DNA of 64,000 bases from a bacterium (GTDB lineage: Bacteria > Hydrothermota > Tepidihabitantia > Tepidihabitantales > Tepidihabitantaceae). Positions 8,138-64,000 of the stretch are shown here, in pieces. Position 1 is the first letter of the stretch. Each line of letters starts with the position of its first letter. Where the stretch lies: contig DATJQV010000081.1 in assembly GCA_035505375.1 (NCBI GenBank), forward strand, positions 151,423-215,422. Reading direction: 5' to 3'. Both the position numbers and the translations under genes were made by a program. The notes under the pieces were generated by a model. The model made no database searches and was not told the origin of the DNA. It saw nothing but the letters and a program-made list of their open reading frames with translations.

Positions 8138-8380
8138 TCTGTTCCTCCATTCGTACTGCCTGTCTCACACCATCGCATTCCTGCATCGGGACCATGAACA
8201 ACTCAGCGTCCGGAAGCCAGAGGCTGGTCTCCAACCAAGAACCGTAGTATTTCAGAGTTCTGAGCCGTTCATTCTGGACTGTTTGTAGTGGAACGTGAAA
8301 TGTGGCAGCTAGATGACGTAAGGCACTCAAATGTAAGACGATAGTCGATGTGACTCATGAATCAGGATAGCACCTACCGG

Positions 8381-8685
8381 GTCACTCCCCGAGCCACTCC
8401 CCCAGTCACTCCCTGAGTGACTCCCCGAGTGAACCGGTAGGTGATCACCCCGTTGAACTGGCGGGTGAACCCCTGGGTCAGTCGGGGGATTAGTTACAGA
8501 CTGAGCTGGGAATTCATCTACCGACTTACTTGCCGGATAACTTAGTGGTTGAGTCGGTAGGTGACCCTAGGGGCGAGTCGTGGGGTGTATTGGTGGGTGA
8601 ACCGCTGGTTGACCTGCCGGATGACCTGCAGACTGACCAGCCGAATGACTTGAGCGGTGACTTGCCTAGTGACCTGCCGAGTCCA
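8381..8685. repeat. 12-nt-periodic tandem array (about 25 units, GTGAC/GTCAC-containing), copy 1
   Basis: Units include cccagtcactcc, ccgagtgactcc, ggtgacttgcct and agtgacctgccg, with a strict 12-nt register. It lies upstream of, and divergent from, the small ORF at 7685-8137. On the plus strand it reads as xDLP tetrapeptides. Confidence 0.8.
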
Positions 8686-11223: not shown

Positions 11224-11265
11224 GGCAACTCAAGGTTGAGGTTAAGGCTAAGGCCGAGCCATAGA

Positions 11266-11610
11266 TCACCGGTTCGACCTTCTGAGCGTTGAGATGACTT
11301 TGTTCAGGTCGGCGTGAATGGCGTCTAGCTTGTCGGCTATCTCACGGGCGACGGTCGCAGTCAGATAGCCCACGCGCTTGCCATACTCCACATGACTCTG
11401 GGTCTCCGTGACCGAGCCACGAGCGACGTGGTAGAACCTGACCTTGTCGGGTGTGTGACTTCTGCCGAAAGCCTCCGCGATATTTGCGGAGATGCTGAGG
11501 GCCGCTCGCCGAATCTGCGATGTAAACCCATAGTCCTCTTTGCGCGGCAGCTTGTCGGTCAAGACGAAGACCTGCTCAGCCACCGCCATGGCCGACTGCC
11601 AGACAGGCAT
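11266..11610 (-). CDS. Four-helix-bundle protein (PF05635 / 23S rRNA intervening-sequence protein family)
   Basis: The core MPVWQSAMAVAEQVFVLTDKLPRKEDYGFTSQIRRAALSISANIAEAFGR...ARGSVTETQSHVEYG matches family hallmarks. The ORF is open up to 11697, through flanking heptamer repeats. Confidence 0.7.
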   Translation of the reverse strand: MPVWQSAMAVAEQVFVLTDKLPRKEDYGFTSQIRRAALSISANIAEAFGRSHTPDKVRFYHVARGSVTETQSHVEYGKRVGYLTATVAREIADKLDAIHADLNKVISTLRRSNR

Positions 11611-11779
11611 GTCCTTGAATGAAAGATAGGCCGGTCTAGGTTGAGGTAGAGATGGAGGATTAGGTTGAGATTCTGGTCGAGGTCGAGATTCAGACATAGA
11701 CCTTCCTGGACCTTAGCCCTGACCTTGGCCTAACCCTTGCTCCTAACTTCGACCTCAACCTTAGCCTTGACCTCATCGC

Positions 11780-24834: not shown

Positions 24835-24910
24835 CTGGCGCTATCAACAAGCATAAGCTATTGATATTTAAGGTGATAATTGGCATGCAGAGTCACCCGC
24901 GCCAGCACTC

Positions 24911-25222
24911 GGTAAGTCACTCCCCCAGTGATTCCCCCAGTCACTCCCCCAGTGACTCCCCCAGTCACTTACCGAGTGACTTACCGAGTCACTTGCCTGG
25001 TGAGTCACCGAGTGACTGGGCGAGTGACTCGCCTGGTGACTTACCGACTGACATGGTAAGTGACATGCCCAGTTACTTGCCCAGTGAGTTGCCGAGTGAC
25101 TTACCCAGTGACTCGTCTAGTGAGTCGGCAAGTGACTTGCCTAGTGACACGCCGAGTGACTCGCCGAGTGAATTACCTAGTGAATTACCGAGTGGTTTGC
25201 TGAGTGGTTTGCTGAGTAGTTT
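24911..25222. repeat. 12-nt-periodic tandem array (about 26 units), copy 2; possibly the coding part of a Ser-x-x-Pro tetrapeptide-repeat ORF (24885-25250, plus strand)
   Basis: Units cccagtcactcc, ccgagtgactta, cctagtgacacg and others in perfect register. In the plus frame they read SHSP SDSP SDLP SELP. The fourth codon varies ccc/ccg/cct, which is synonymous. AAGGTG lies 9 nt before the ATG at 24885. Confidence 0.75.
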
Positions 25223-25415
25223 GAAGACGGGTATGCAGCGTGTCGGCTGATTGGGCGCTGACCATGGCCTTGATCATTCCAAGGACGGCAGCTTGCGGCG
25301 GTATATAGACACCAGGAATGCAGGAAGCCATCCAGCAAGCTCTTGGACGAACAATCTATGGAGCCTTCTGGCGAGCAGCGGAGCCAGTCCCGACCGGTGC
25401 TGTTGAGGCCGCGCT

Positions 25416-36129: not shown

Positions 36130-36915
36130 ATGGTCGGACTACTCGTCCTCGCCATCGCCCCGGCCGTCGCCCTGTTCCTCTTCTTCTACCTCCGCGACAA
36201 GTACCGAAGAGAACCCATCGGTGTCCTGCTGGTAACGTTCGCGCTGGGCGCCGCCTCACTGGTTCCCGCGGCAATCACGTCGCTCTCGCTTCAGAAGCTC
36301 ACCGGCTGGCGCTCAAGCACCCCCAGCCTGCTCCATGCCTTCCTCGGCGCGATGATTATCGTCGGCCTGGTCGAAGAGGGCGCGAAGTTCATTGTCGTCC
36401 GGTTCTACGCCTACCACCGGCCCGAGTTCGACGAACCCTATGACGGGATAATGTACTCGGTCATGGCCGCGCTCGGCTTTGCCACCCTAGAAAACATCAT
36501 CTACATCTTCTCAAACGGCGCCGGAACCGGCGTGATGCGCGCGCTGCTGGCGATGCCGAGCCACGCCTTCGACGGCGTGCTGATGGGCTACTTCCTCGGC
36601 GAGGCCAAGTTCGCGCGCAACGACCGTGTCGGCAACTGGCTTTCCGCTCTTGGTTTCGGATTGGCAGTCATCGCCCACGGGCTATACGACTTCATTGTTT
36701 TCTCGCTCGACAAGAGGCCGCTGATGGTGCTAAGCCTGCTCACGATGGCGGTTCTATTCTGGGTTATTTTCTTCAAGGCCACTCGGAAACTGTCGGAACA
36801 GTCGCCCTACAAACACCCGCAGCTAGTCGCACTTCGCCGCGACTCGGCCGAAGAGGCGAAGACCGAAGAACATACGGACAACCTACAAGACACAAAGCCA
36901 CCGCAGAAGGGATGA
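36130..36915 (+). CDS. prsW: PrsW-family intramembrane metalloprotease
   Basis: EEGAKF, FATLEN and HGLYD motifs in a multi-pass membrane protein. Confidence 0.75.
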   Translation: MVGLLVLAIAPAVALFLFFYLRDKYRREPIGVLLVTFALGAASLVPAAITSLSLQKLTGWRSSTPSLLHAFLGAMIIVGLVEEGAKFIVVRFYAYHRPEFDEPYDGIMYSVMAALGFATLENIIYIFSNGAGTGVMRALLAMPSHAFDGVLMGYFLGEAKFARNDRVGNWLSALGFGLAVIAHGLYDFIVFSLDKRPLMVLSLLTMAVLFWVIFFKATRKLSEQSPYKHPQLVALRRDSAEEAKTEEHTDNLQDTKPPQKG

Positions 36916-37021
36916 AGGCGGAGGGATGAAGGATGAATTCCGGTTCCGGCCTCCCGGTTCAGCCTTTCCGGTTTCATCGCTTCCTCTTTGTGTCTTGGTG
37001 TCTTTGTGGTGAATCCCGAAA

Positions 37022-37657: not shown

Positions 37658-38815
37658 TCACTCCTTTTCGGTTCGGGTCAAGAAACGTTCGACATGATCC
37701 CGCCTTGGCATGGATGGTTCAGCGCCCATGATGGTGCAGGCGAGAGCGCCGCAGGCGTTGGCGAATCGCACAGCTTCATCAAGGCTGGCACCCTCGGCAA
37801 TTCTCACCGCCAATCCGGCGCGGAACGCATCCCCAGCGCCGGTCGTGTCCACGACGTTCACCTTGTGCGCCGGGAACCGGGTCAGCGCGGCGCGGTCAAC
37901 TGCCAGCGCGCCTTCTTCGCCGAGTGAGATAACCACGCCCTGCCGCGTCTCGGGCAGAAGCACAGCCGCCGCTTCCTCCGGCGTCATCCTGCCGGTCAGC
38001 ATGTGGGCTTCGATTTCGTTGGGCACAAGGTAGTCAAAGTAGAAGTCGTCCAGTGGTCTCGTGGTCGAGTGTTCCGGCATCTCCGTTCTGGAACTCTGGC
38101 TTCTGCCCCCTTCTGTCTGACTTGGTGCCTTTGCGTCTTGGTGGTGAAATCCGTCTCCGCAATTCTGGTTTCTAGTTTCTGGTTTCTGGTCTCTGGTTTC
38201 TCCGTCCGCCTTTGTGTCTTCGTGTCTTTGTGGTGAATCCCCGCAATTCTGGACCCTGGACTCTGGATTCTGGATTCTGGATTCTTCCTGTCCTCCATGC
38301 CTCACCGGCGCAGGGTCGAGCAGCACCAGTGTTCCGTGCTTCCGGGCAATCTCGGCGGCACGCCGCGACGCTGCCAACGGTATCTCGAACTGGAGCATCA
38401 GGATGTCGGCGAGGGCAATCTGCTCCTCTACCGCGAGCACATCCTCGGGCGTCACGCGCATGTTGGCCCGCGGCGCGGCGATGATGCTGTTCTGCCCGTT
38501 CTCGTCCACGACCGGCGTGGCAATCGCGGTTCCCGCCTCAGGGTCGCGGGTCACGCCACTCAGGCAGATTCCTTCCTGCTCCAGCTTGGCGACGAACATG
38601 TCACCGAACGGGTCGCGGCCGACCCGACCGACGATGCACACGTCAGCGCCCAGTCGCCTCGCTCCGACCGCCTGGTTGAACCCCTTGCCGCCGAGGAACA
38701 TACCGAAGTCTTCGGCCAGCATCGTCTCGCCCGGTCCGGGCCGGTGCTTCACTCTAAACATGAGGTCGGTCACGAAGCTCCCGACAACCAGAACGCGAGG
38801 CCGGTCGCCTTTCAT
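37658..38815 (-). CDS. PfkB/ribokinase-family sugar kinase carrying an in-frame insertion of about 75 aa
   Basis: N-terminal GGKGFNQA and C-terminal DTTGAGDAF motifs. Between LDPAPV and DDFYFDYLVPNE, where E. coli RbsK has about 8 residues, lies about 75 aa of low-complexity sequence. It is encoded by heptamer and 35-nt repeats at 38090-38300. Confidence 0.7.
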   Translation of the reverse strand: MKGDRPRVLVVGSFVTDLMFRVKHRPGPGETMLAEDFGMFLGGKGFNQAVGARRLGADVCIVGRVGRDPFGDMFVAKLEQEGICLSGVTRDPEAGTAIATPVVDENGQNSIIAAPRANMRVTPEDVLAVEEQIALADILMLQFEIPLAASRRAAEIARKHGTLVLLDPAPVRHGGQEESRIQNPESRVQNCGDSPQRHEDTKADGETRDQKPETRNQNCGDGFHHQDAKAPSQTEGGRSQSSRTEMPEHSTTRPLDDFYFDYLVPNEIEAHMLTGRMTPEEAAAVLLPETRQGVVISLGEEGALAVDRAALTRFPAHKVNVVDTTGAGDAFRAGLAVRIAEGASLDEAVRFANACGALACTIMGAEPSMPRRDHVERFLTRTEKE

Positions 38816-45546: not shown

Positions 45547-45615
45547 CAGGGGATTCGGATAATCCAGAATCCAGAGTCCAGAGCTCAGAATCCAGAATCG
45601 ACGGACGGGACGAGG

Positions 45616-45975
45616 ATGAGGGACTTCCGATCGGACCTGAGCGAACGGCTGCTAGACTTCGCGGTCAGCGTCGTTGCGCTCGCCCCGCGTCTGCAGCGCT
45701 CGGCAACCGGTCGTTTCATGGTGGGGCAACTGGTGCGTTCTGCTTCCTCAGCAGGTGCGAACTTCCATGAAGCTTGTGGTGCCGAAAGCAGAGCCGACTT
45801 CGCACATAAGATGCAGGTGGTCCTCAAGGAATTGCGCGAGACCGAGTACTGGTTGAAGCTGGTCACGCGGGCAAAACTGCTTCCGACCGATCTGCTGTCG
45901 GAACCATTGGCTGAGGCGGACGAGTTGATCAGAATCGTGGTGAAGTCCGTTGTCACTGCCAAGTCGAGACCCTGA
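45616..45975 (+). CDS. Four-helix-bundle protein (PF05635 family), copy 2
   Basis: FAVSVVALAPRL...VRSASSAGANFHEACGAESRADFAHKMQVVLKELRETEYWL. Confidence 0.7.
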   Translation: MRDFRSDLSERLLDFAVSVVALAPRLQRSATGRFMVGQLVRSASSAGANFHEACGAESRADFAHKMQVVLKELRETEYWLKLVTRAKLLPTDLLSEPLAEADELIRIVVKSVVTAKSRP

Positions 45976-46041
45976 TGTCGGGTTTGTCAATTCTGGGTTC
46001 TAGTCTCTGGATTCTGAATTCTGGACTATCCGGAGTCCGCC

Positions 46042-47259
46042 ATGCGCTTTGAATTGTTCATGGCAAGACGCTACCTGCGCGGACGGGGTCGGCGCCTCAT
46101 CTCCGGAATAACCGCGATTGCCATCGGCGGAGTGTTCGTCGGCGTTGCGGCTATCATCATCGTGCTCTCAGTCGAGAATGGATTCCACCAGGAACTTACC
46201 AACCGGATTCTCGGTGCTACGCCGCACGTAACCGTAGCCAAGTATTCGTATGAGCCGATTCCCACCTGGATCGGCGATTCGTTGCAGCGTGAGATTGCCC
46301 GGGTGCCGGACGTTGTTTCGGTCGCACCGTTCATCTACGCGAAGACACTGGTCCGCTCAGAAAACGGAGTCGAGGGAGTTGTGATTCGCGGCGTCGATCC
46401 GAAGCACGAGAAGGAGATTACCGGCATATCGGGGAATATCGTGCAGGGACACTTCGCCTTCGACTCCAGCGGCGTGGTCATCGGCGTCGAACTGGCGCGT
46501 GAGCTCGGACTCTCGATCGGCGACAGCCTGAATCTCGCCTCACCGTTCGGCGGAACAATGACTGCCTTCGGTTTCATCCCTCGCACGCGGTACTTCCGGG
46601 TGAACGGTATCTTCGACTCCGGGATGTACGAGTATAACTCGAGCTTCGTATTCCTGTCGCTTGGGGCAATCCAGCGATTCCTGGACATGGAGAACATGGT
46701 CACTGGTTTCGAGGTCCAGGTGAAGGACGTCTACGCCGCCGACCGCACGGCGCACATCATCACGCGGCAGCTCGGCTATCCGTACCGCGCCTCGGACTGG
46801 ATCCTCCAGAACCGCAATCTCTTTTCCGCCTTGCGGCTGGAGAAGGTCGTGACCTTCATCGTGCTGGTGCTGATTGTGCTGGTTGCCGCCTTCAACATCA
46901 TCGGCATGCTGATGATGATGGTTATCCGCAAGACCCGCGAGATCGGCATCCTGAAGGCGATGGGCGCCAGGCCCGCCACGGTGACACGCATCTTCGTTTG
47001 GGCCGGCGGGTTAATCGGAGTCATCGGCACCGTGACCGGCGCGGGCTTCGGCCTGCTCGCCTGCTGGCTGCTGAACAAGTACCGGTTCGTATCGCTGCCC
47101 GGCGACGTCTATTTCATCAAGAATCTGCCGGTGCAGGTGCTGGCGCAGGACTTCGTCGTTGTCTGCATCGCGGCCATCGTCATCACGTTCGCGGCCACGG
47201 TCTACCCGGCTTTGAAGGCGGCGAGGCTCGTGCCGCTGGAAGCAATCAGATATGAGTGA
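46042..47259 (+). CDS. lolE: Lipoprotein-release ABC transporter permease (LolC/LolE, FtsX/MacB-like)
   Basis: 405 aa. N-terminal TM, a large periplasmic domain and a C-terminal three-TM FtsX domain. Confidence 0.8.
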   Translation: MRFELFMARRYLRGRGRRLISGITAIAIGGVFVGVAAIIIVLSVENGFHQELTNRILGATPHVTVAKYSYEPIPTWIGDSLQREIARVPDVVSVAPFIYAKTLVRSENGVEGVVIRGVDPKHEKEITGISGNIVQGHFAFDSSGVVIGVELARELGLSIGDSLNLASPFGGTMTAFGFIPRTRYFRVNGIFDSGMYEYNSSFVFLSLGAIQRFLDMENMVTGFEVQVKDVYAADRTAHIITRQLGYPYRASDWILQNRNLFSALRLEKVVTFIVLVLIVLVAAFNIIGMLMMMVIRKTREIGILKAMGARPATVTRIFVWAGGLIGVIGTVTGAGFGLLACWLLNKYRFVSLPGDVYFIKNLPVQVLAQDFVVVCIAAIVITFAATVYPALKAARLVPLEAIRYE

Positions 47260-48013
47260 AGCGACCAGGGATGAGGGACTAGGGGCTAGGGGTCAGGTTT
47301 CGGACCCTGACCCCCAACCCCTGACCCCTGACCCCTCGGTCGTGCTCCGCGCGACCGACGTATGGCGCGTGTTCGAGACCGGGGCTGAGCGTCTGGAAAT
47401 CCTCCGCGGCGTGAACCTGGAGGTCAGCCGAGGCGAGCTGGTGGCGATTCTCGGCCCTTCGGGAACCGGCAAATCTACCCTCCTGCACGTGCTCGGAGCG
47501 CTGGATCGCCCCACAAGAGGCCGAGTGTTCCTTGATTCAGCTGACGTTTTCAGCTACCCTGAGTCCAAGCTCCACGAACTGAGAAATCGGAAGCTCGGGT
47601 TCGTGTTCCAGTTTCACCACTTGCTGTCCGAGTTCACGGTTCTGGAGAACGTGGCAATGCCGCTGCTTGTTGCGGGCGTGGCTCGGCCCGAGGCGATGGA
47701 CCGTGCGCACCGCGTGCTCGAGGACGTCGGATTCCTGACCCGGCTCACCCACCGGCCGTCCGAGCTATCGGGCGGAGAAAAGGCGCGGGCGGCAGTGGGA
47801 CGCGCGCTGGTGAATAACCCGGCGGTGATTCTCGCCGACGAGCCGACCGGCAACCTCGACACGACCTCGGCGGCGGCGCTGGTTGACCTGATGGTGCGAC
47901 TGAGCAGCGAAAGGAAAATGACGATTCTGGTAGTGACTCACAATCAGTCCGTCGCCGACCGAGCGACACGCCGGCTCCATCTAGCCGAAGGAAGACTCAC
48001 GGAGGAGAGGTGA
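47252..48013 (+). CDS. lolD: Lipoprotein-release ABC transporter ATP-binding protein LolD
   Basis: Walker A GPSGTGKST, LSGGE signature and ILADEPTGNLD. ATGA overlap with lolE. The first 30 codons run through a GGGGYTA/GGGGTCA heptamer element. An alternative GTG start lies at 47342. Confidence 0.8.
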   Translation: MSEATRDEGLGARGQVSDPDPQPLTPDPSVVLRATDVWRVFETGAERLEILRGVNLEVSRGELVAILGPSGTGKSTLLHVLGALDRPTRGRVFLDSADVFSYPESKLHELRNRKLGFVFQFHHLLSEFTVLENVAMPLLVAGVARPEAMDRAHRVLEDVGFLTRLTHRPSELSGGEKARAAVGRALVNNPAVILADEPTGNLDTTSAAALVDLMVRLSSERKMTILVVTHNQSVADRATRRLHLAEGRLTEER

Positions 48014-48116
48014 CAAAGCAGAAATCAGGATTCAGATACCAGAATGCAGAACTGCCGGACTTTCTGACTTCTGGTCTCTGTTCTCTGAATTCTGAATTAT
48101 CCGGAGTGTCCGGGCT

Positions 48117-48605
48117 ATGAAACTCTGTGACCTTTGCGGCAAGGGCGAGGCGACGATGAAGGTGAGCCAGCTCGACAAGAACGGCAAGGTCACCGAGGTC
48201 TCGGTTTGCGCCGAGTGCGCGCGCCAGCGGGGGTTCGCCGAGGTCGAGCAGCTCAAGGCGGGCGCGGCGGAGATAATCGCCGAGTTGAAGACGCGCGTCG
48301 ACGAGGCCGATGCGAAACTGGTCTGCCCGAGCTGCGGCCTGACGTATGCGGAATTCAAGCGACAGGGCCGGCTGGGCTGTGCCGATTGCTACGTTTCCTT
48401 CCACGACCAACTATTGCCGGTGATACGCCGAATCCACGACGCGGTTCAACACGTGGGCCGGACCGCGAGCGGCGGCCGCAAACATGCGCAGGTCCAGATG
48501 AACATCCAGAAGCTGCGCCAGGCCCTGTCCGGTGCAATCCAGGACGAGGACTACGAGAAAGCCGCCGCCCTGCGCGACCAGCTCAAGCACGCGGAAGCAG
48601 AATGA
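48117..48605 (+). CDS. mcsA: McsA-like activator (Zn-finger plus UVR domain)
   Basis: CDLC...CAEC and CPSC...CADC zinc-ribbon pairs. A C-terminal UvrB/UvrC motif (YEKAAALRDQLK). Confidence 0.7.
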   Translation: MKLCDLCGKGEATMKVSQLDKNGKVTEVSVCAECARQRGFAEVEQLKAGAAEIIAELKTRVDEADAKLVCPSCGLTYAEFKRQGRLGCADCYVSFHDQLLPVIRRIHDAVQHVGRTASGGRKHAQVQMNIQKLRQALSGAIQDEDYEKAAALRDQLKHAEAE

Positions 48606-48699
48606 GTGCCAGAGGAATCAGAGATTCAAGGATTCAAGGGGGCCAATGCGGTGTCACTCGAATCCTGGAATCCTCGACCCCTGGATTCCTTCAGTTCCC

Positions 48700-49743
48700 A
48701 TGAACTCCACCGGCACTGTTGGCAAGTGGCTTGCGGCCGCCGGGCCGGAGAGCGATGTCGTGCTCTCGACCCGCGTTCGGCTGGCCCGAAACCTTGCCGA
48801 GGTGCCGTTCACTCACCGGTCAAAAGCGGACGCCCAGGAGCGAACCGTTGAGGCCGTTCGCCTGGCGCTCACCGATTCCGGCTACATAGCCGCCGGCGAG
48901 TTCATCGACAACGAGCGGCTTTCCGAACAGTACGGCCAATACCTGGTCGAGCGGCACCTGGCGTCGCCCGACTTCACTGCATCCAAAGCCAAGCGCGGGC
49001 TGTACTTCAGCGAAGATGAAGCTACGAGCCTCATGGTCAACGAAGAGGACCATCTCCGATTCCAGGTTCTGGCCTCGGGCCTTGATTTCCCGGAGGCGTT
49101 CACTGCGGCAGCAACGCTCGACGAGAAGCTGGAAGGACAACTTCAGTACGCGTTCTCGCCCGAGTTCGGATTCCTGACCGCGTGTCCGACCAATCTCGGA
49201 ACCGGTATGCGGGCCTCGGTTCTCGTGCACCTGCCCGCGCTCGTCATCACCCGCGAAATTGAGAAGGTGCTGCGCGGGGCGTTGCAGATCGGCCTCGCGG
49301 TGCGCGGCCTGTACGGCGAGGGCACCGAAACCAAAGGGAACTTCTTCCAGATTTCCAACCAGAAGACGGTCGGCCAGACCGAGTGGGAAATCATCGAGAC
49401 GATTGCCGACATCAGCCGGCAGATAATCCAGTACGAACGGAAGGCCCGTGGGTACCTTATGAACAAGCTCCGGGTCGAGATCGAGGACAAGGTCTTCCGT
49501 TCGCTCGGGCTGCTACGGGGGGCGCGCATCCTCACATCGGACGAGGCTATCAACCTGATTGCGAACCTCAGACTCGGGATCGCGCTCGGCATCGTAAACG
49601 AACTTAACCTGGAGCAGGTCACGCGGCTCATGGTGCTCGTCCGGCCCGCGAACCTGCAGGCAATGCTGGGCGAGAACCTGACCGCGTCGGAGCGCGACGA
49701 ACGGCGCGCCACCTTCGTCAGAGAGACGCTGGTGCATCAGTGA
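48700..49743 (+). CDS. mcsB: Protein-arginine kinase McsB (ATP:guanido phosphotransferase)
   Basis: Phosphagen-kinase C-terminal domain motifs (CPTNLGTGMRASV). The start is taken at MNSTG. Confidence 0.85.
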   Translation: MNSTGTVGKWLAAAGPESDVVLSTRVRLARNLAEVPFTHRSKADAQERTVEAVRLALTDSGYIAAGEFIDNERLSEQYGQYLVERHLASPDFTASKAKRGLYFSEDEATSLMVNEEDHLRFQVLASGLDFPEAFTAAATLDEKLEGQLQYAFSPEFGFLTACPTNLGTGMRASVLVHLPALVITREIEKVLRGALQIGLAVRGLYGEGTETKGNFFQISNQKTVGQTEWEIIETIADISRQIIQYERKARGYLMNKLRVEIEDKVFRSLGLLRGARILTSDEAINLIANLRLGIALGIVNELNLEQVTRLMVLVRPANLQAMLGENLTASERDERRATFVRETLVHQ

Positions 49744-51260
49744 GGCAGAAGGGGTCAGGGGTCAGGGGTCAGGGGTCAGAAGCTGGAAGTCAGAATAAGC
49801 AGACCGGACTGCGCGGACTTCCGTCGGTGGACAAACTTCTCAGTGACGAGACGCTCGCGCCCGTGCTCGCGCAAGTCCACCGCCGCATGGCGGTGCGGGC
49901 AATCCGAGCCTATCTCGACGAGCTACGGGAGAACCTGAAAGAGCCGCAACACGCAGACGGCAAGCCCCAAGCGTTCTCAATGGCGGAGTTGCTGCGCCGA
50001 CTCGAACGAGAGCGCAAGCCGACGCTGGCGCGCGCCATCAATGGCCTTGGCGTCATTCTGCACACTGGGCTGGGGCGCGCGCCGCTGTCCAAGGCTGCAC
50101 AGGAAGCGCTTACTGACGTGAGCGAGCACTTCTCCAGCCTTGAAATCGACATCGAGACCGGACGGCGCGGCAGCCGCTACCGGCACATCGAACCGCTGCT
50201 GTGCGAACTGACGGGCGCTGAGGCGGCGATGGTCGTCAACAACAACTGCGCGGCTACCTTGCTAATCCTGTCCGGGCTGGCCAAAGGCAAAGAGGCGATT
50301 GTCTCGCGCGGCCAGCTTGTCGAAATCGGCGGCGCGTTCCGAATCCCCGACGTGATGATGCAAAGCGGATGCAAGATGGTCGAGGTCGGCACGACCAATC
50401 GCACTCACCTGCGCGACTACAATAATGCCATCACTCCGGAGACGGCGCTCCTGCTCCGGGTTCACACCTCCAACTACAAGATTACCGGGTTCACCAAGGA
50501 AGTAAGCCTCGAAGAGATGGTAGCTCTCGCCCAAGAGGTCAATCGCTCGCCCCTCGCCCCTCGCCCCTCGCCCCTCCTCGTCGTGGACGACCTCGGTTCA
50601 GGGGCGCTCGTCGACCTTTCGAAGTACGGCCTGCCCAAGGAACCGCTGGTACAGGAATCGGTCAAGGCCGGAGCGGACGTCATCTGCTTCTCCGGGGACA
50701 AACTCATTTCCGCGTCGCAAGCCGGCATCATCGTCGGCAAGAAGAAGCACATCGACCTGCTGAAGAAGCATCCGCTCACCCGGGCCATGCGCTGCGGCAA
50801 GCTCACCTACGCCGTGCTCGAACGGACACTGGAGCTGTTCCTTGACGAGGAACGCGCAGTCAAGGAACATGCGCTCTTCCAGTTACTGCTGAAGACCACG
50901 GACCAGATGCAGGGCGAAGCCGATGAACTCGTGCGCCGGGTTCAGTCTCTTCTCCCTCTCCCTCTCCCTCCGGGAGAGGGTTGGGGTGAGGGCGACAACG
51001 TCGTGGCCAAGTTCACCGTCAGACCTGCTCTTTCCGAAATCGGCGGCGGCTCACTCGCGACCGAGAGCCTCGAATCGCGGGTAGTTGCCATCACGCCGAA
51101 GACGATGCATGTCGACGAGCTGGCCCGTCGCATGCGTCTCAATCGGCCCCCGGTGTTCGGCCGGGTCGAAAAGGGCGAATACCTGCTCGACTTCCGTACC
51201 CTCCGCCGCGACGAAATCCCCATTATCTCTTCCGCGCTCCTCTCCGCTTTCCAGCAGTAG
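49740..51260 (+). CDS. selA: L-seryl-tRNA(Sec) selenium transferase SelA
   Basis: PLP fold with the lysine in FSGDKL. A GTGA overlap with the mcsB stop. The N-terminus and two internal sites contain heptamer or palindromic insertions. Confidence 0.75.
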   Translation: MRQKGSGVRGQGSEAGSQNKQTGLRGLPSVDKLLSDETLAPVLAQVHRRMAVRAIRAYLDELRENLKEPQHADGKPQAFSMAELLRRLERERKPTLARAINGLGVILHTGLGRAPLSKAAQEALTDVSEHFSSLEIDIETGRRGSRYRHIEPLLCELTGAEAAMVVNNNCAATLLILSGLAKGKEAIVSRGQLVEIGGAFRIPDVMMQSGCKMVEVGTTNRTHLRDYNNAITPETALLLRVHTSNYKITGFTKEVSLEEMVALAQEVNRSPLAPRPSPLLVVDDLGSGALVDLSKYGLPKEPLVQESVKAGADVICFSGDKLISASQAGIIVGKKKHIDLLKKHPLTRAMRCGKLTYAVLERTLELFLDEERAVKEHALFQLLLKTTDQMQGEADELVRRVQSLLPLPLPPGEGWGEGDNVVAKFTVRPALSEIGGGSLATESLESRVVAITPKTMHVDELARRMRLNRPPVFGRVEKGEYLLDFRTLRRDEIPIISSALLSAFQQ

Positions 51261-57362: not shown

Positions 57363-57410
57363 GATTGGGGCTAGGGGTTAGGGAATAGGGGTTAGAGAGG
57401 ACACGGGAGG

Positions 57411-57791
57411 ATGAAGGGTCCCATTCGGAGCTACAAGGACCTCGTGGTCTGGCAAGAGGCTATCACCTTGGTCGAGCTGACATATGGACTCGCGCGGGAA
57501 TTGCCTGCAAGTGAGAGGTTCGGACTAATATCCCAGATGACGAGAGCCGCCGTATCGGTGCAGGCTAACATTGCCGAAGGCCATGGTTCCCGACACCGGG
57601 CCGTCTATCTGAATCACCTGTCCATCAGCAAGGGTTCGTTGGTCGAACTAGAGACGTACATTATCCTGGTCGTGAAGCTGGGTTTCGTGAAGCCGGACCG
57701 CACCGCAAAGATCCAGGGCAAGATTGATGATGTCGGGAGGCTGTTGAGCGCTCTTGTGCGAGCGCTCCGCGTCTCCGTCGACCGTTCCTGA
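57411..57791 (+). CDS. Four-helix-bundle protein (PF05635 family), copy 3
   Basis: YKDLVVWQEAITLVELTYGLAR...QMTRAAVSVQANIAEGHGS...LSISKGSLVELETY. Confidence 0.7.
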   Translation: MKGPIRSYKDLVVWQEAITLVELTYGLARELPASERFGLISQMTRAAVSVQANIAEGHGSRHRAVYLNHLSISKGSLVELETYIILVVKLGFVKPDRTAKIQGKIDDVGRLLSALVRALRVSVDRS

Positions 57792-57800
57792 CCCTAGTCC

Positions 57801-58625
57801 CTAACCCCTAATCCCTAGTCCCTTACCCGCTCGCCTCTTGGGCGAGAAGAGCAGGCACAGCCCGAACAACGCGCTCGACGTTACTATGATGACCGCGCCC
57901 GCCGGGGCGTCAGTCAACCACGAGACGAGTAGTCCAATCAGGCACGACAGAATCCCAAACAACGCCGAAAGCAAGTACATGGTCCTCAGCCGATAGGTCA
58001 ACTGGTACGCTGCTGACGGTGGGTTGACGATGAGGCTGAAGATGAGGAGCCCGCCGATGGTGCTCAAGTTGGCGGTTACCGACAGGCCGCACAAGACCAG
58101 CATTGCGAAGAAGAGCGCTCGCTCGGGTATCCCGACCGCGCGGGCGATTTCCCGGTTGTAGAGCACGGCCTGGATTTCCTTGTAGAACAGCCAGAGAAAC
58201 AGCAGCACCACTACTGCCGCGCCGGCCATCACCGCGAGGTCGCGCCCGGCCACGAGCAGGATGCTGCCCCATATCAGGCCGAGAGCGTTGGCGCGTGAGC
58301 CGCGCATCAGGCCGATGGCAAGAAAGGCGAGGCCGAGCACGAGCGAGAAGATGATGCCAAGCGAGACATTGGGTTCGATGTCAGCGCGCTCGGCAACCGG
58401 GCCGACGAGGAACGACGCGGCGATGCAGAAGACCGCGGCGGTAATGAGCGGGTTTACTCCGAGCAGCAGTCCGGTTACCGCACCGGCAAAGGCCGCGTGC
58501 GACATCGCCACCCCGACAAATGGTATGTTCATCATCACGACCCAGACCCCGACGATGCCGCAGACCAGCCCTCCGAGAACTGCGGCAGCAAGCGGCCGCC
58601 AGAGTATGGCGAGTTCAGGCGGCAT
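57801..58625 (-). CDS. znuB: ABC-3 family metal (Zn/Mn/Ni) transporter permease
   Basis: 274 aa with 8-9 TM helices. Confidence 0.75.
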   Translation of the reverse strand: MPPELAILWRPLAAAVLGGLVCGIVGVWVVMMNIPFVGVAMSHAAFAGAVTGLLLGVNPLITAAVFCIAASFLVGPVAERADIEPNVSLGIIFSLVLGLAFLAIGLMRGSRANALGLIWGSILLVAGRDLAVMAGAAVVVLLFLWLFYKEIQAVLYNREIARAVGIPERALFFAMLVLCGLSVTANLSTIGGLLIFSLIVNPPSAAYQLTYRLRTMYLLSALFGILSCLIGLLVSWLTDAPAGAVIIVTSSALFGLCLLFSPKRRAGKGLGIRG

Positions 58626-59349: not shown

Positions 59350-59375
59350 TCGTTCCTCGCCCTGACCCCTGGCCC

Positions 59376-60188
59376 CTAGTCCCCGGCCCCTGTCCCAACT
59401 GCCTGCGCCAGCGCCGATGCGTTGTCGAGCAGCGCCTGGCGGTAGGACCCGTGCAGCGGGAAGTTGGTCAGGGTGACGTGCTTTGCCTTGAGCGCCTCGG
59501 CGAGCGGCCTGCCCGCGTCCGGGCCGGATTGCAGATTATCGACGACGAGGCTTGCGCCGGAGTCGAGCGCGACGCGAGCCAGGCGGGTGAGTCCCTGAGC
59601 GGTGAAGTCCTCGGCCCGACCAAAGGTCGCCACCACCCGGAATCCGAGTGACGCGACGAACGGCGCCTGCTGGTCAGCCGCGATTACCGCCGGCAGTTGC
59701 TTTCCTGCGAGCAGCGTCCGTGCGGCAACCGCGGCCGAGTCGACATCGGCCCCGTAGCGCAACCCTGCCAGCCGATATGTGTCGGCGTGCCCCGGGTCGA
59801 GTCCCTGCAACAAGGTGGTAATTTCAGCGGCTGCCTGCTTCTGTAGTTCGGGAATCATCCAGTTTCCCTGTGTCGCAAGCGTCACTCTCCTCGGGCCGGG
59901 CGGGATGATCGCCTTCTCCAGCGCCGGGTACCAGGCTTCCCAGCCGTGGTTCAGGATGAGCCGGGCGTTGTTCGCCGCAGTCACATCCGACGGCTTCAGG
60001 TCGAACTGCCCCGGACACAGCCCGGCCGGGGCAATGGTAGTGACTGCGAATCGGTCACCGCCAATCGTTTGTACAATCGTGCTGATGAGCGTGGTAGAGG
60101 CGACCACACGGATTCGGCCTGACGGCCGGGCGCAACCGAAGATCGTAACCCCGACGAGGAACAATCGCATCAAGAGCTTCTTTGCCAT
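59376..60188 (-). CDS. znuA: TroA/ZnuA-family metal-binding periplasmic lipoprotein
   Basis: Lipobox IFGC and the ZnuA/TroA fold pattern. The start is taken at MAKKLL. Confidence 0.7.
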   Translation of the reverse strand: MAKKLLMRLFLVGVTIFGCARPSGRIRVVASTTLISTIVQTIGGDRFAVTTIAPAGLCPGQFDLKPSDVTAANNARLILNHGWEAWYPALEKAIIPPGPRRVTLATQGNWMIPELQKQAAAEITTLLQGLDPGHADTYRLAGLRYGADVDSAAVAARTLLAGKQLPAVIAADQQAPFVASLGFRVVATFGRAEDFTAQGLTRLARVALDSGASLVVDNLQSGPDAGRPLAEALKAKHVTLTNFPLHGSYRQALLDNASALAQAVGTGAGD

Positions 60189-62241: not shown

Positions 62242-64000
62242 ATGAGGACATCGAGCGTACTGCTGGCCGTCTGCTGCTGCCTGTCGGCGGCCAGCGGACA
62301 GACCTTGGAGACCACCATCTATCTGCCCGACTCGCTCGGCGGGCTGTCTCAACCGCAGTGTCTGGCGTATGACTCGGCCAGCAACACTGTCTACGTCGCC
62401 GGCACGTACGGCAACTACGTGCTGGCCATTGATGGCGCGGCCAACCAGAAGCTGGCCAGAATCCCGATCGGGTCGCTCGGAAGCGCCCTCTGCTACAACC
62501 CGACCAAAAACAAGGTCTACTGCGCAAATCTCTACAGCGACAAGGTAACCGTCGTGGATGGCGTAACCAACGGAGTTATCGCCACCGTGACTGTAGGTAG
62601 CAATCCTTTGGCTCTCTGTTACAACCCGACGAACAGCAAGGTCTATTGCGCGAACGAACACAGTGGTAGTGTGACCGTGATTGATGGCGCGACTGACAGC
62701 GCCATCGCTACCGTGGCTACAGGTAGCTATCCTCGTGCCTTCTGTTACAACCCGACCAATAACAGGGTCTACTGTGCGAACTACAGCAGCGCCAACGTGA
62801 CCGTGATTGACGGTGCCGCCGACAGCGTCATCGCCACCGTGACAGCAGGTAGCCACCCTTATGCCCTCTGCTACAACGCGACCAGCAACAAAGTCTACTG
62901 TGCGAATGAGGGCAGCGACAACGTTACGGTGATAGACGGCGCGACTGACAGCGTCATCGCCACCGTGACTGCGGGTGTCCACCCGTGGGCCCTGAGCTAC
63001 AACCCGACGAACAATAGGGTCTACTGCGCGAACGAGGCAGACACGACCGTGACCGTGATTGACGGCGCGAATGACCGTGTCATCGCCACCGTGGCTGCAG
63101 TCCTCCACCCCGATGCGCTTTGCTACAATCGCGCTAATGACAAGGTCTTCTGCGCGGACGCGGGCGGCGATGTGACGGTAATTGACGGCGCCACCGACAG
63201 CGTCATCGCCACAGTGGCCGCAGGAAGCTACCCCTGTGCCATTTGCTACAACTTGGCCAACAACAAGGTCTGCTGTGCCAATCAAAACAGCGGCAACGTG
63301 ACCGTGATAGACGGCGAGAGCAACGAGGTCATCGCCACCGTGGGCACAGGCACGTGGCCGTACGCTCTCTGCTACAACCTGACCAAAAACAAGGTCTACT
63401 GTGCGAACAATAGCAGTTGCAGCGTGACCGTGATAGACGGCGGGAGTAACGAGGTCATCGCCACGGTCGCCACAGGTGAAATGCCCGAGGCCCTCTGCTA
63501 CAGCATGACCAACGACAAGGTCTACTGCGCGAATTGGATGGTCGGAGACGTGACCGTGATAGATGGTGTGACCGACGGCGTCATCGCTACAGTAGCTACC
63601 GGTGGGAGTCCTAGCGCTCTCTGCCACGACTCGGCCAATGATAAAGTCTACTGCGCGAGCTTTGACGGCGGCGTGACCGTGATTGACGGCGCAACTGACA
63701 GTGTCATCGCCACCGTTGCCACTGGCAGCGGCCCGAGTGCCCTCTGCTACAACACGGCCCGCAACAAGGTCTACTGTGCGAACTCCTACAGCGACAACGT
63801 GACCGTGATAGACGGTGTCGCCGACAGCGTCATCGCCACCGTGACTACGGGCAGTGAACCCTATGCCCTCTGCTACAACCCGACGAACGATAGGGTGTAC
63901 TGCGCGAATCGGGGTAGCGACAGCGTGACCGTCATGGACGGCGCAACTGACAGTGTCATCGCCACCGTTGCCACTGGCAGCGGCCCGAGTGCCCTCTGCT
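62242..64000 (+). CDS. YVTN-family beta-propeller repeat protein, N-terminal part; the gene runs off the window end
   Basis: AAGGAG lies 5 nt upstream of the ATG. Signal peptide MRTSSVLLAVCCCLSAASGQT. At least 13 tandem repeats of about 42 aa (126 nt) with the consensus KVYCAN..S..VTVIDGATDSVIATV.TGS.P.ALCYNPTNN. It is absent from the ORF track because it has no stop inside the window. Confidence 0.7.
   Translation, partial: MRTSSVLLAVCCCLSAASGQTLETTIYLPDSLGGLSQPQCLAYDSASNTVYVAGTYGNYVLAIDGAANQKLARIPIGSLGSALCYNPTKNKVYCANLYSDKVTVVDGVTNGVIATVTVGSNPLALCYNPTNSKVYCANEHSGSVTVIDGATDSAIATVATGSYPRAFCYNPTNNRVYCANYSSANVTVIDGAADSVIATVTAGSHPYALCYNATSNKVYCANEGSDNVTVIDGATDSVIATVTAGVHPWALSYNPTNNRVYCANEADTTVTVIDGANDRVIATVAAVLHPDALCYNRANDKVFCADAGGDVTVIDGATDSVIATVAAGSYPCAICYNLANNKVCCANQNSGNVTVIDGESNEVIATVGTGTWPYALCYNLTKNKVYCANNSSCSVTVIDGGSNEVIATVATGEMPEALCYSMTNDKVYCANWMVGDVTVIDGVTDGVIATVATGGSPSALCHDSANDKVYCASFDGGVTVIDGATDSVIATVATGSGPSALCYNTARNKVYCANSYSDNVTVIDGVADSVIATVTTGSEPYALCYNPTNDRVYCANRGSDSVTVMDGATDSVIATVATGSGPSALC

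What the first reader, a model, noticed from the sequence alone, without database searches (positions are those of the whole stretch)
47262..47340. Empty heptamer hairpin (GGGGCTA/GGGGTCA inverted arms) at the lolE-lolD junction, translated as the first 30 codons of lolD
The sequence gggactaggggctaggggtcagg ttt cggaccctgacccccaacccctgacccctgacccc is an inverted pair of the same 7-mer arms that flank the four-helix-bundle gene at 57.4 kb, but without cargo. It begins 3 nt after the ATGA lolE/lolD overlap. If the ATG at 47252 is used, LolD therefore gains an N-terminal extension MSEATRDEGLGARGQVSDPDPQPLTPDPS. If the GTG at 47342 is used, the coupled start is lost. Either way the element has landed at a translational-coupling junction of an essential operon.
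Basis: seen in the sequence. Interest (0 to 1): 0.6.

Follow-up and report, generated by a model that had tools for sequence, protein, structure and literature searches.

The report
Repeat hairpin translated into LolD tail
A 75-base palindrome made of seven-letter repeats lies just inside the start of the lolD transporter gene, is read through as a floppy and fast-changing protein tail, and belongs to a widespread family of repeat hairpins whose full-length members carry a small four-helix-bundle gene.

Summary
Window 47267-47336 is an imperfect palindrome with four heptamer units per arm around a TTTCGGAC centre. It folds far better than shuffles.

It lies inside lolD, not between genes. lolD starts at ATG 47252, which overlaps the lolE stop by 8 nt (ATGAGTGA). 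The hairpin is translated into a roughly 25-aa Gly/Pro/Ser-rich tail that AlphaFold predicts as disordered.

Evidence comes from 17 distinct orthologous junctions in WOR-3 metagenomes:
- All carry a hairpin at this spot, built from different 7- or 8-nt units.
- The nine ATG-to-core lengths are all multiples of 3.
- Stop triplets number 0 in frame, against 12 and 19 out of frame.
- 13 of 17 have no alternative start after the hairpin.
- In the window, the two heptamers that would put TGA in frame are the two that are mutated.

The hairpin is one copy of a dispersed family. These elements sit at gene boundaries in this clade and swap between sites. The long form carries a PF05635 four-helix-bundle gene between the arms: 3 of 3 such genes in the window. 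I found the same architecture in cyanobacterial and Gemmatimonadota plasmids.

Most likely it is tolerated selfish DNA. A role in lolE-lolD translational coupling is not excluded.

The parts
46042..47259 (+). lolE-like permease gene (MacB_PCD + FtsX). Stop TGA at 47257-47259.
   Evidence: ORF list, Pfam, called gene on an identical contig.
47238..47242 (+). Shine-Dalgarno-like GGAAG, 9 nt upstream of the lolD ATG. It is GGAGG in 14 of 17 orthologues.
   Evidence: Sequence; upstream 22-mers of 17 junctions.
47252..48013 (+). lolD ABC ATPase gene, start ATG 47252-47254. It overlaps lolE by 8 nt (ATGAGTGA).
   Evidence: Start assignment from comparative frame, stop and alternative-start analysis.
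47267..47297 (+). Left (G-rich) arm: AGGGATG AGGGACT AGGGGCT AGGGGTC AGG. Translated as R-D-E-G-L-G-A-R-G-Q.
   Evidence: the repeat finder I1, TRF, fold.
47298..47305 (+). Centre or loop TTTCGGAC. It carries the YCGGA motif shared by most hairpins of the family.
47306..47336 (+). Right (C-rich) arm. Read as heptamers from 47305: CCCTGAC CCCCAAC CCCTGAC CCCTGAC CCCTCGG. The two units whose positions 4-6 fall in frame (47315-17 and 47336-38) read CAA and TCG instead of TGA.
47336..47358 (+). Small second hairpin TCGGTCGTGC-TCC-GCGCGACCGA over codons S-V-V-L-R-A-T-D. A hairpin of different sequence lies here in all orthologues, including those without the repeat hairpin.
   Evidence: the repeat finder I9; folds of orthologous junctions.
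47342..47344 (+). Here it is interpreted as internal Val codon 31.
   Evidence: No SD upstream. 13 of 17 orthologues have no in-frame start codon after the hairpin.
45556..46032 (+). Cargo-bearing family member between lysS and lolE. Layout: (AATCCAG)x5, then TCGACGGAC, then PF05635 gene 45616-45975, then (ATTCTGG)x5. ACTATCCGGAG follows, supplying a GGAG before the lolE ATG.
48019..48097 (+). Empty hairpin of the CAGAAT family between lolD and mcsA, with centre CTGCCGGAC.
48610..48692 (+). Empty hairpin of 8-nt units (RAGGATTC / GAATCCTS) between mcsA and mcsB.
49750..49779 (+). (GGGGTCA)x4 half-element just after the GTGA overlap start of selA. It lies in the selA ORF as GSGVRGQGS.
57365..57828 (+). 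Cargo-bearing family member: (GGGGYTA)x4, then PF05635 gene 57411-57791, then (CCCTAAY)x5.
11237..11775 (-). Third cargo-bearing member: PF05635 gene 11266-11697 between inverted AAGGCTA/TTAGCCT arms.

Best explanation
The feature is a cargo-less copy of a dispersed 'tandem-repeat palindrome' family.

**Family layout.** Two inverted arms, each made of tandem 7- or 8-nt units, with the purine-rich arm 5'. They surround a centre that usually contains CCGGA. Full-length members carry a PF05635 four-helix-bundle gene between the arms.

**Where these elements live.** In this WOR-3 clade they sit at gene boundaries. Where neighbouring genes overlap, a copy downstream of the upstream stop falls inside the next gene, and only in-frame, stop-free copies survive.

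**What happens at lolD.**
- Shown by comparison: translation starts at ATG 47252, inside the 8-nt overlap with lolE, with a GGAAG 9 nt upstream. The ribosome reads through the palindrome. LolD therefore carries a hypervariable N-terminal tail of about 25 residues. The ABC fold starts at V30.
- Inferred: the element is tolerated selfish or neutral DNA, and selection acts mainly to keep the frame open.
- Inferred: the mRNA hairpin starts at +16 from the ATG, the leading edge of an initiating ribosome. It probably makes lolD expression depend on ribosomes arriving from lolE. I regard that as a side effect, not the reason the element is there.
- Shown as a pattern, mechanism unknown: the hairpin type at this site is exchanged among a shared pool of types.
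For: **Real and structured.**

**Translated.**
- 17 distinct orthologous junctions, fetched with a DNA anchor independent of gene calls, all have the overlap start followed by a hairpin of a different unit type.
- ATG-to-core distances are 105, 108, 111, 114, 123, 126, 135, 141 and 147 nt, all multiples of 3.
- Stop triplets inside the inserts: 0 in the lolD frame, 12 and 19 in the other two frames. Naive Poisson P is about 2e-7, not corrected for relatedness.
- In the window and in L151, the phase-0 heptamers are the ones that lost TGA.
- 13 of 17 have no in-frame ATG/GTG/TTG after the hairpin.
- GGAGG or GGAAG lies 9 nt before the ATG in all 17.

**Not a domain.**
- The Pfam ABC_tran match starts at residue 51 and nothing matches upstream.
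- The tail differs completely between relatives about 85% identical to each other.
- AF2 gives pLDDT 47-55 and no secondary structure for residues 1-29; the fold starts at residue 30.

**Family membership.**
- More than 20 arrays of 7-, 8- or 12-nt units in 64 kb.
- Hairpins at lysS-lolE, lolD-mcsA and mcsA-mcsB.
- 0.167 hairpins per kb in WOR-3 relatives against 0.005 per kb in 408 kb of other phyla.
- CCGGA centre motif in 15 of 33 hairpins against 8.4% of background windows.
- 3 of 3 PF05635 genes in the window lie between such arms.

**Dispensable and mobile-like.**
- The hairpin is partly deleted in P0040 and absent in outgroups.
- It is present or absent at lolD-mcsA.
- Hairpin type is unrelated to flank genealogy: flank identity is 0.848 for same-type pairs and 0.851 for different-type pairs.
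- Whole hairpins recur at other sites.
- Arrays are also tolerated in frame inside PfkB and SelA.
Against: - There are no expression data of any kind. Translation is inferred from comparison only.
- Every sampled member of the clade keeps a hairpin at this exact site despite complete sequence turnover. That is also the signature expected of a selected RNA structure.
- One locus (L136) has a broken frame. It could be an assembly error or a decaying gene.
- No transposase or other mobilising enzyme was identified, and no classical target-site duplication is seen at this site. 'Mobile' therefore rests on distribution patterns.
- The stop-avoidance statistic ignores phylogenetic non-independence.
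- Several unit types contain no stop triplet in any frame, so they are informative only through length.
Confidence: 0.72

Rival explanations
1. The hairpin is a selected cis-acting mRNA structure. Placed right after the lolD start, it would block independent 30S loading, so LolD is made only by ribosomes that have just finished lolE. Alternatively it could serve as an RNase III or exonuclease-blocking site that sets the lolE:lolD ratio. Being translated would be incidental.
For: - Position is conserved in all 17 junctions while the sequence turns over completely, and each copy keeps about 28-39 paired bases.
- In several orthologues the stem begins only 7-9 nt after the ATG, inside the footprint of an initiating ribosome.
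- Hairpins also lie at the other junctions of the same gene cluster.
- A second small hairpin over the V-L-x-A-x-D codons is present even in lineages without the repeat hairpin.
Against: - Sense and antisense strands fold about equally well, with no consistent G-U bias toward the mRNA strand.
- Outgroup WOR-3 lineages keep the same 8-nt overlap with no hairpin (L096, L124, L120).
- One in-clade protein has lost the right arm (P0040).
- The same elements occur inside PfkB, at convergent gene ends (57.4 kb) and as half-arrays, where coupling makes no sense.
- In the window the stem starts at +16, so it need not be melted for initiation.
- There is no U-tract terminator and no Rfam family.
Confidence: 0.17
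2. lolD starts at GTG 47342. The hairpin would then be an untranslated 82-nt intercistronic spacer, and the long ORF would be an accident of G/C-rich repeats.
For: GTG 47342 is in frame and would give a LolD of typical length. The Pfam domain would then start at residue 21.
Against: - There is no SD-like sequence upstream of the GTG.
- 13 of 17 orthologues have no in-frame start codon after the hairpin.
- All nine length classes are multiples of 3, and in-frame stops are specifically avoided.
- The conserved M-S/N-E/R start inside the overlap is also the start in lineages without a hairpin.
Confidence: 0.03
3. The different hairpin 'types' arise in place by concerted evolution. A mutated unit would spread through both arms by slippage and intra-hairpin correction. 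There would be no movement or copying between loci.
For: - Several unit types differ by a single base or indel: GGGGTCA, GGGGTTCA, GGGGTCAA, GGGGCTA.
- The CCGG-containing centre is retained across types at this site.
- The polyphyletic type B could simply be the ancestral state.
- With cargo present, the arm family stays the same across seven genomes.
Against: - Whole hairpins including the loop match at about 85% over 59-80 nt between different sites and genomes. Examples: the L118 lolD site against the L152 mcsA-mcsB site, and the L084 lolD site against the L084 mcsB-selA site.
- Flank genealogy and hairpin type are completely uncorrelated.
- Insertions at lolD-mcsA are present or absent with different types.
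Confidence: 0.2

Closest known systems
Rickettsia palindromic elements (RPEs) and other intragenic MITEs
   Same: Short palindromic repeats that sit in frame inside unrelated protein-coding genes and are translated as extra peptide without destroying the host protein (review PMC10969869, read).
   Different: RPEs are families of about 100-150 bp with a conserved sequence, and they are restricted to Rickettsia. Here the arms are tandem 7- or 8-nt units, and the peptide is low-complexity and hypervariable. A long form with a PF05635 gene exists. The host is candidate division WOR-3.
Cyanobacterial STRR (short tandemly repeated repetitive) heptamer arrays (Mazel et al. 1990, cited from my own knowledge; paper not held)
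   Same: Tandem heptanucleotide arrays, several unit families per genome, mostly at gene boundaries. I found cyanobacterial PF05635 genes flanked by inverted heptamer arrays just as in this window.
   Different: STRRs were described as arrays, not as paired inverted arms around a defined centre or a cargo gene. The units differ, and the phylum differs.
REP / BIME / REPIN elements
   Same: Dispersed hairpin-forming repeats at gene boundaries within operons. They are non-autonomous and depend on a factor encoded elsewhere (PMC3116915).
   Different: REPs have a fixed consensus of about 20-35 nt, are extragenic and are tied to RAYT transposases. No RAYT was seen here, the arms are tandem short units, and this copy is translated.
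23S rRNA intervening sequences encoding PF05635 ('S23p', IVS protein)
   Same: A PF05635 four-helix-bundle ORF carried in the loop of a long stem formed by inverted flanks and embedded in a host transcript. That is the architecture of the three cargo copies in the window.
   Different: IVSs sit in rRNA helices and are excised by RNase III. Here the host is mRNA or intergenic DNA, the flanks are tandem repeats, and the lolD copy has no ORF.
Structure-dependent translational coupling (for example phage MS2 and some operon junctions; own knowledge)
   Same: A stable stem next to a downstream start, located at a stop/start overlap.
   Different: In known cases the stem sequesters the RBS or start codon. 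Here the SD and the ATG are outside the stem, and the stem itself is coding.

Membership tests
WOR-3 tandem-repeat palindrome family (defined here) | Two inverted arms, each with at least 3 tandem 7- or 8-nt units, purine-rich arm 5' | tested here: met
   Arms 47267-47297 and 47306-47336, four heptamers each, G-rich arm first.
WOR-3 tandem-repeat palindrome family (defined here) | Centre containing CCGG or YCGGA | tested here: met
   The centre is TTTCGGAC. CGGA/TCCG occurs in 21 of 33 family centres against 23% of background windows.
WOR-3 tandem-repeat palindrome family (defined here) | Related copies elsewhere in the genome and in relatives, at gene boundaries | tested here: met
   Shares a 12-mer with the 57.4-kb arms, and its right arm matches the 49750 array at 93% over 30 nt. 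Hairpins occur at neighbouring junctions and at 0.167 per kb in relatives.
WOR-3 tandem-repeat palindrome family (defined here) | PF05635 gene between the arms (full-length form) | tested here: not met
   Only 8 nt lie between the arms, so this is the cargo-less form. None of the 17 orthologous lolD hairpins carries cargo.
Rickettsia palindromic elements | Palindromic repeat inserted in frame in a protein-coding gene and translated | tested here: met
   Comparative evidence from frame, stops and start codons. No proteomic proof.
Rickettsia palindromic elements | Membership of an RPE sequence family, Rickettsia host | tested here: not met
   The host is candidate division WOR-3. The arms are heptamer arrays with no conserved ~100-150-nt consensus.
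Cyanobacterial STRR | Tandem heptanucleotide arrays of a few genome-wide unit families | tested here: met
   TRF and period-7 scans.
Cyanobacterial STRR | Cyanobacterial host and the published STRR units | tested here: not met
   WOR-3 host. The units are GGGGTCA, CAGAAT and others. The published STRR units are recalled from memory only.
REP / REPIN | Associated RAYT (Y1 transposase) gene in the genome | not tested
   Only 18 window ORFs were scanned against Pfam and none was a Y1 transposase. The rest of the genome is unavailable.
REP / REPIN | Extragenic location and a fixed REP consensus | tested here: not met
   This copy lies inside the lolD ORF, and its sequence differs completely between orthologous sites.
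Intrinsic transcription terminator | GC-rich stem followed by a U tract | tested here: not met
   No terminator-like site at 47262-47345; the stem is followed by CGGTCGTGCTCC.
Any Rfam RNA family | Match at the family's gathering score | tested here: not met
   Only a tRNA passes in the window. At the hairpin there are only sub-threshold microRNA-precursor look-alikes, 23-33 bits against cut-offs of 78-97.
Conserved N-terminal protein domain of LolD | Peptide conserved across orthologues and predicted to fold | tested here: not met
   The peptide is hypervariable, has no Pfam match before residue 51, and has pLDDT 47-55 with no secondary structure.

The most novel reading that the evidence does not exclude
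The hairpin could be the non-autonomous form of an unrecognised, cross-phylum class of genetic element. The autonomous form would be a PF05635 (Avd / rRNA-IVS-protein-like) four-helix-bundle gene nested between inverted arrays of 7- or 8-nt repeats.

Under this reading the protein recognises its own cognate repeat arms and promotes their copying, replacement or maintenance at gene-boundary sites. Cyanobacterial STRR arrays and rRNA intervening sequences would be manifestations of the same system.

The evidence does not exclude this. Cargo and arm family travel together. The architecture recurs in WOR-3, Cyanobacteria and Gemmatimonadota. Empty hairpins swap between sites.
Probability: 0.25. 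Interest if true: 0.85.

Novelty: new variant of a known kind. Interest (0 to 1): 0.6.

Why it matters
**For annotation.** The finding fixes the lolD start. It also warns that in this clade low-complexity Gly/Pro/Ser tails and insertions, seen in LolD, SelA and PfkB, are translated repeat DNA and not domains.

**For biology.**
- An essential ABC ATPase tolerates a very stable mRNA hairpin (-54 to -60 kcal/mol) in codons 6-29. The hairpin is swapped for unrelated ones between relatives about 85% identical to each other.
- Three things usually treated separately now appear linked: heptamer tandem arrays (the long-unexplained cyanobacterial STRRs), the abundant 'four helix bundle / 23S rRNA IVS protein' genes of unknown role, and in-frame palindromic insertions.
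- That link gives a concrete, testable hypothesis for what PF05635 proteins do outside diversity-generating retroelements.

Tried and rejected
- **Genome-contig scan with the LolD core.** Generic ABC-ATPase motifs swamped it and it returned no WOR-3 locus. The 80 loci were reused only as an out-of-phylum control.
- **Two contig look-ups.** They returned gene tables but no DNA.
- **Rfam and the terminator scan.** Nothing relevant.
- **Sense versus antisense folding energy as a test for mRNA-level selection.** No consistent bias, so it is uninformative.
- **NJ tree of LolD proteins.** Too poorly resolved to use. I replaced it with DNA flank trees, nearest-neighbour analysis and bootstrap.
- **Literature searches** for a link between PF05635 or 'four helix bundle protein' and heptamer/STRR repeats, and for WOR-3 repeats. 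Nothing found. Elhai et al. 2008 on small cyanobacterial repeats is not held.
- **G-quadruplex reading of (GGGGTCA)n.** Rejected as a general explanation because most unit families (CAGAAT, CACAAAG, AGTGGTCC) have no G-tracts.
- **'Orientation relative to transcription' of empty hairpins.** Rejected as meaningless, because a palindrome reads the same on both strands. The real regularity is that the purine-rich arm is always 5'.
Full report
**1. The observation**

The repeat finder reports arms 47267-47297 and 47306-47336, 31 nt each, 77% complementary and 8 nt apart.

- Left arm: AGGGATG AGGGACT AGGGGCT AGGGGTC AGG.
- Right arm, read from 47305: CCCTGAC CCCCAAC CCCTGAC CCCTGAC CCCTCGG.
- As RNA the + strand folds to -59.9 kcal/mol (z = -4.9; 0 of 200 shuffles as good). 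The - strand folds to -70.7 kcal/mol (z = -6.2).
- GGGGTCAGGGG with up to 1 mismatch occurs 11 times in the window against 1.8 expected.

The stretch is identical on a second contig (7,218 of 7,218 nt), so it is not an assembly artefact.

One correction. lolE (46042-47259) ends with TGA at 47257-47259, and the lolD ORF starts with ATG at 47252-47254. The overlap is therefore the 8-nt ATGAGTGA, not ATGA.

**2. Organism and context**

LolD homologues identify the source as candidate division WOR-3, from metagenomes. The gene order lysS - lolE - lolD - mcsA - mcsB - selA is conserved in all relatives recovered.

**3. Is the hairpin translated?**

The Pfam ABC_tran match begins at residue 51 of the 253-aa ORF, so about 30 residues are extra.

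Among 120 homologues, close relatives (80-89% identity) nearly all have an N-terminal extension of 25-43 residues, but the peptide differs. Examples are GSGVRGQGSG...PDPRTPVPDP, GTKGQRDRGTEG...LDPLIPRSLDPS, WSSGPVDQ...LDHLTTRPLDHS and IQGVQDSRG...SNPGILDPS. Many more distant WOR-3 proteins start MNEPVLIAEG or MSDIPVVLEA with no extension.

I fetched junction DNA independently of gene calls. I used a 20-nt anchor in the conserved WRVFETG codons plus contig look-ups. Seventeen distinct junctions carry the same 8-nt overlap start followed by a strong hairpin, each built from its own repeat unit.

- ATG-to-anchor distances are 105, 108, 111, 114, 123, 126, 135, 141 and 147 nt. All nine are multiples of 3.
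- Inside the inserts, stop triplets number 0 in the lolD frame against 12 and 19 in the other frames. The naive Poisson P is about 2e-7.
- In the window, a heptamer containing TGA cycles through all three frames. The three out-of-frame units keep CCCTGAC. The two units whose positions 4-6 are in frame (47315-17 and 47336-38) read CAA and TCG. The nearest relative, L151, shows the same pattern.
- Thirteen of 17 junctions have no in-frame ATG/GTG/TTG between the hairpin and the conserved core.
- GGAGG, or GGAAG in the window at 47238-42, lies 9 nt upstream of the ATG in all 17. Nothing SD-like precedes GTG 47342.
- AlphaFold2 on a 35-sequence alignment gives pLDDT 47-55 and no secondary structure for residues 1-29. 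The fold starts at residue 30 with pLDDT of at least 90.

One locus (L136) has a broken frame.

Conclusion: lolD starts at 47252, and the palindrome is translated into a disordered tail rich in P, G, S and V.

**4. What kind of thing is it?**

The window holds more than 20 arrays of 7-, 8- or 12-nt units. Repeat-unit hairpins also lie between lolD and mcsA (48019-48097, CAGAAT family) and between mcsA and mcsB (48610-48692, 8-mers). A half-element, (GGGGTCA)x4, follows the GTGA overlap start of selA.

All three PF05635 ('23S rRNA intervening sequence protein', four-helix bundle) genes in the window lie between inverted arrays:

| PF05635 gene | Strand | Arm units |
|---|---|---|
| 45616-45975 | + | AATCCAG / ATTCTGG |
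| 57411-57791 | + | GGGGYTA / CCCTAAY |
| 11266-11697 | - | AAGGCTA / TTAGCCT |

The lolD hairpin shares the 12-mer GGGGCTAGGGGT with the 57.4-kb left arm.

At the lysS-lolE site, seven genomes carry an orthologous PF05635 gene, always with CAGAAT-family arms. Three others have empty hairpins of other unit families there. In cargo copies, TTGCCGGAC follows the left arm, and ACTATCCGGAG follows the right arm and supplies a GGAG for the downstream host gene. In empty copies the CCGGA motif is the centre. CCGGA/TCCGG occurs in 15 of 33 centres against 8.4% of background windows (P about 2e-8).

A strict detector finds 0.167 such hairpins per kb in WOR-3 relatives and 0.005 per kb in 408 kb of LolD loci from other phyla.

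There is no Rfam family and no terminator signature.

**5. Dynamics**

Hairpin type at the lolD site is unrelated to the genealogy of the flanks.

- Mean flank identity is 0.848 for same-type pairs and 0.851 for different-type pairs.
- The nearest neighbour has a different type in 16 of 17 loci, with bootstrap of at least 0.84 in 15 of them.
- Whole hairpins including the centre recur at other sites. The L118 and L119 lolD hairpins match the mcsA-mcsB hairpins of L152 and L146 at 85-87% over 63-80 nt. The L084 lolD hairpin matches L084's own mcsB-selA hairpin.

At lolD-mcsA the ancestral state is a gene overlap of about 15 nt. Filled alleles have the overlap segment duplicated, so both genes stay intact, and they carry different hairpin types.

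The hairpin can be lost. P0040 keeps only the left arm, and L152 keeps only a right arm at lolD-mcsA.

Arrays are also tolerated in frame in the middle of a PfkB kinase and inside SelA.

These patterns fit a dispersed, copy-and-replace element whose survival depends on not breaking host genes. They fit a junction-specific regulator less well. In-place concerted evolution probably contributes too, because several units differ by a single base.

**6. Mechanism**

Shown by comparison: the start is at the overlap, translation runs through the stem, and the tail is disordered and hypervariable.

Inferred: ribosomes terminating at lolE re-initiate 5 nt upstream. The stem begins at +16 in the window and at +7 to +9 in some relatives. 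That is at or inside the leading edge of an initiating ribosome, so it may disfavour independent initiation and tie LolD synthesis to lolE translation.

Whether that is selected is unknown. Sense and antisense strands fold equally well, and outgroups manage with the same overlap and no hairpin.

**7. Beyond WOR-3**

A tblastn search of a window PF05635 protein against plasmids hit mainly Nostocales, plus Gemmatirosa.

In at least 8 of 12 loci inspected, the gene lies between inverted tandem 7- or 8-nt arrays with the purine-rich arm upstream. In 7 of those 8 the best 24-nt inverted match exceeds every one of 100 shuffles. Gemmatirosa is counted from the repeat finder, because its left arm lies outside the 110-nt flank that one search scanned. 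Examples:

| Organism | Upstream array | Downstream array |
|---|---|---|
| Nostoc edaphicum | (AGTAGGG)n | (CCCTACT)n, 24 of 24 complementary |
| N. punctiforme and Calothrix | (GGGTGTR)n | (CACCCTA)n |
| Gemmatirosa | (GAGGGCAG)n | (CTCCTGCC)n |

The gene often sits between genes of an operon, for example cas6-cas4, cas10-cmr3 and the ribonucleotide reductase subunits.

Cargo and arm family co-vary. The three window proteins are at most 32% identical and each has its own unit. The Nostoc and Calothrix proteins are 77-89% identical and share theirs.

I found no paper linking PF05635 genes to such arrays. A 2024 review of prokaryotic MITEs contains no match to 'tandem repeat' or 'heptam'.

**8. 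Verdict**

The lolD feature is a translated, cargo-less member of a repeat-palindrome family. In behaviour it is closest to Rickettsia palindromic elements, and in sequence style to cyanobacterial STRRs.

I rate it a new variant of a known kind, with interest 0.6. The broader link between PF05635 genes and repeat hairpins is the most novel lead.

Noticed in passing
window 37658-38815 (- strand), arrays at 38163-38285: A PfkB-family kinase gene carries an in-frame low-complexity insertion of about 65-80 aa (…ESRIQNPESRVQN…HEDTKADGETRDQKPETRNQ…). It is encoded by (AATCCAG)x5, (CACAAAGA)x3 and (AAACCAG)x5 on the coding strand, and it splits the Pfam PfkB match in two.
   Followed up: partly
window 49740-49830 and 50546-50576; L152 8458-8553; L084 8494-8585: selA starts at a GTGA overlap with mcsB, followed at once by (GGGGTCA)x4 read as GSGVRGQGS. 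In L152 and L084 a complete 8-mer hairpin sits in frame at the same place. A second array, (CTCGCCC)x4, lies in frame inside selA (SPLAPRPSPL).
   Followed up: partly
window 11237-11775, 45556-46032, 57365-57828: All three PF05635 four-helix-bundle genes in the window are nested between inverted tandem heptamer arrays. The three proteins are at most 32% identical, and each has its own arm unit.
   Followed up: yes
L153 (Nostoc punctiforme pNPUN01), L155 (Gemmatirosa plasmid), L156, L157, L158, L160, L161, L164: PF05635 genes on cyanobacterial and Gemmatimonadota plasmids show the same architecture: a purine-rich 7- or 8-mer array upstream and its complement downstream. They are often wedged between genes of an operon (cas6-cas4, cas10-cmr3, ribonucleotide reductase subunits). 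This may tie cyanobacterial STRR arrays to these genes.
   Followed up: partly
window 47336-47358 and the equivalent position in all orthologues: A small hairpin over the V-L-x-A-x-D codons at the start of the LolD fold is present with different sequences in every lineage. This includes lineages without the repeat hairpin (for example GTCCTCGTCGCCGAGGAC in L124).
   Followed up: no
window 48010-48117 compared with L083 6740-6780 and others: At lolD-mcsA the ancestral state is a gene overlap of about 15 nt. Alleles with a hairpin have that overlap segment duplicated. A degenerate copy ends lolD (…GRLTEER*) and an intact copy starts mcsA. This resembles a target-site duplication.
   Followed up: partly
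window 57792-57828 and 59360-59396: The right arm of the 57.4-kb element overlaps the 3' end of the convergent ABC-3 permease gene (57801-58625, -). A (CCCTGGC)x5 array spans the ZnuA stop and the intergenic space before the ABC ATPase gene. Arrays therefore also appear to be translated at C-termini.
   Followed up: no
L119 lysS-lolE spacer; L142 and L146 same site: The left-arm module, together with its TTGCCGGA motif, is triplicated in L119. Arm modules are duplicated in L142 and L146 around the same orthologous PF05635 gene.
   Followed up: no
window 8371-8443, 8610-8680, 24906-25223: Long arrays of 12-nt units (AGTGACTCCCCC, AGTGACTTGCCG, TGACCTGCCGAA), some forming hairpins. The one at 24.9-25.2 kb has about 22 copies. 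Their relation to the 7- and 8-mer family was not examined.
   Followed up: no
window 36840-37020: Nested hairpins. GGATGAA-type arms sit inside CACAAAG/CTTTGTG-type arms, as if one element had inserted into the centre of another.
   Followed up: no
window 62485-64000: A large coding tandem repeat (periods 126, 252 and 375 nt) lies inside a long ORF with no Pfam hit on record. It is unrelated to the hairpin family.
   Followed up: no
L136 (Ga0124853_1363953) lolE-lolD junction: The only junction of 18 distinct hairpin-bearing ones where the hairpin is out of frame with the LolD core. Downstream genes on this contig are also unusually divergent (47-61% identity). It may be a decaying copy or a poor assembly.
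   Followed up: partly
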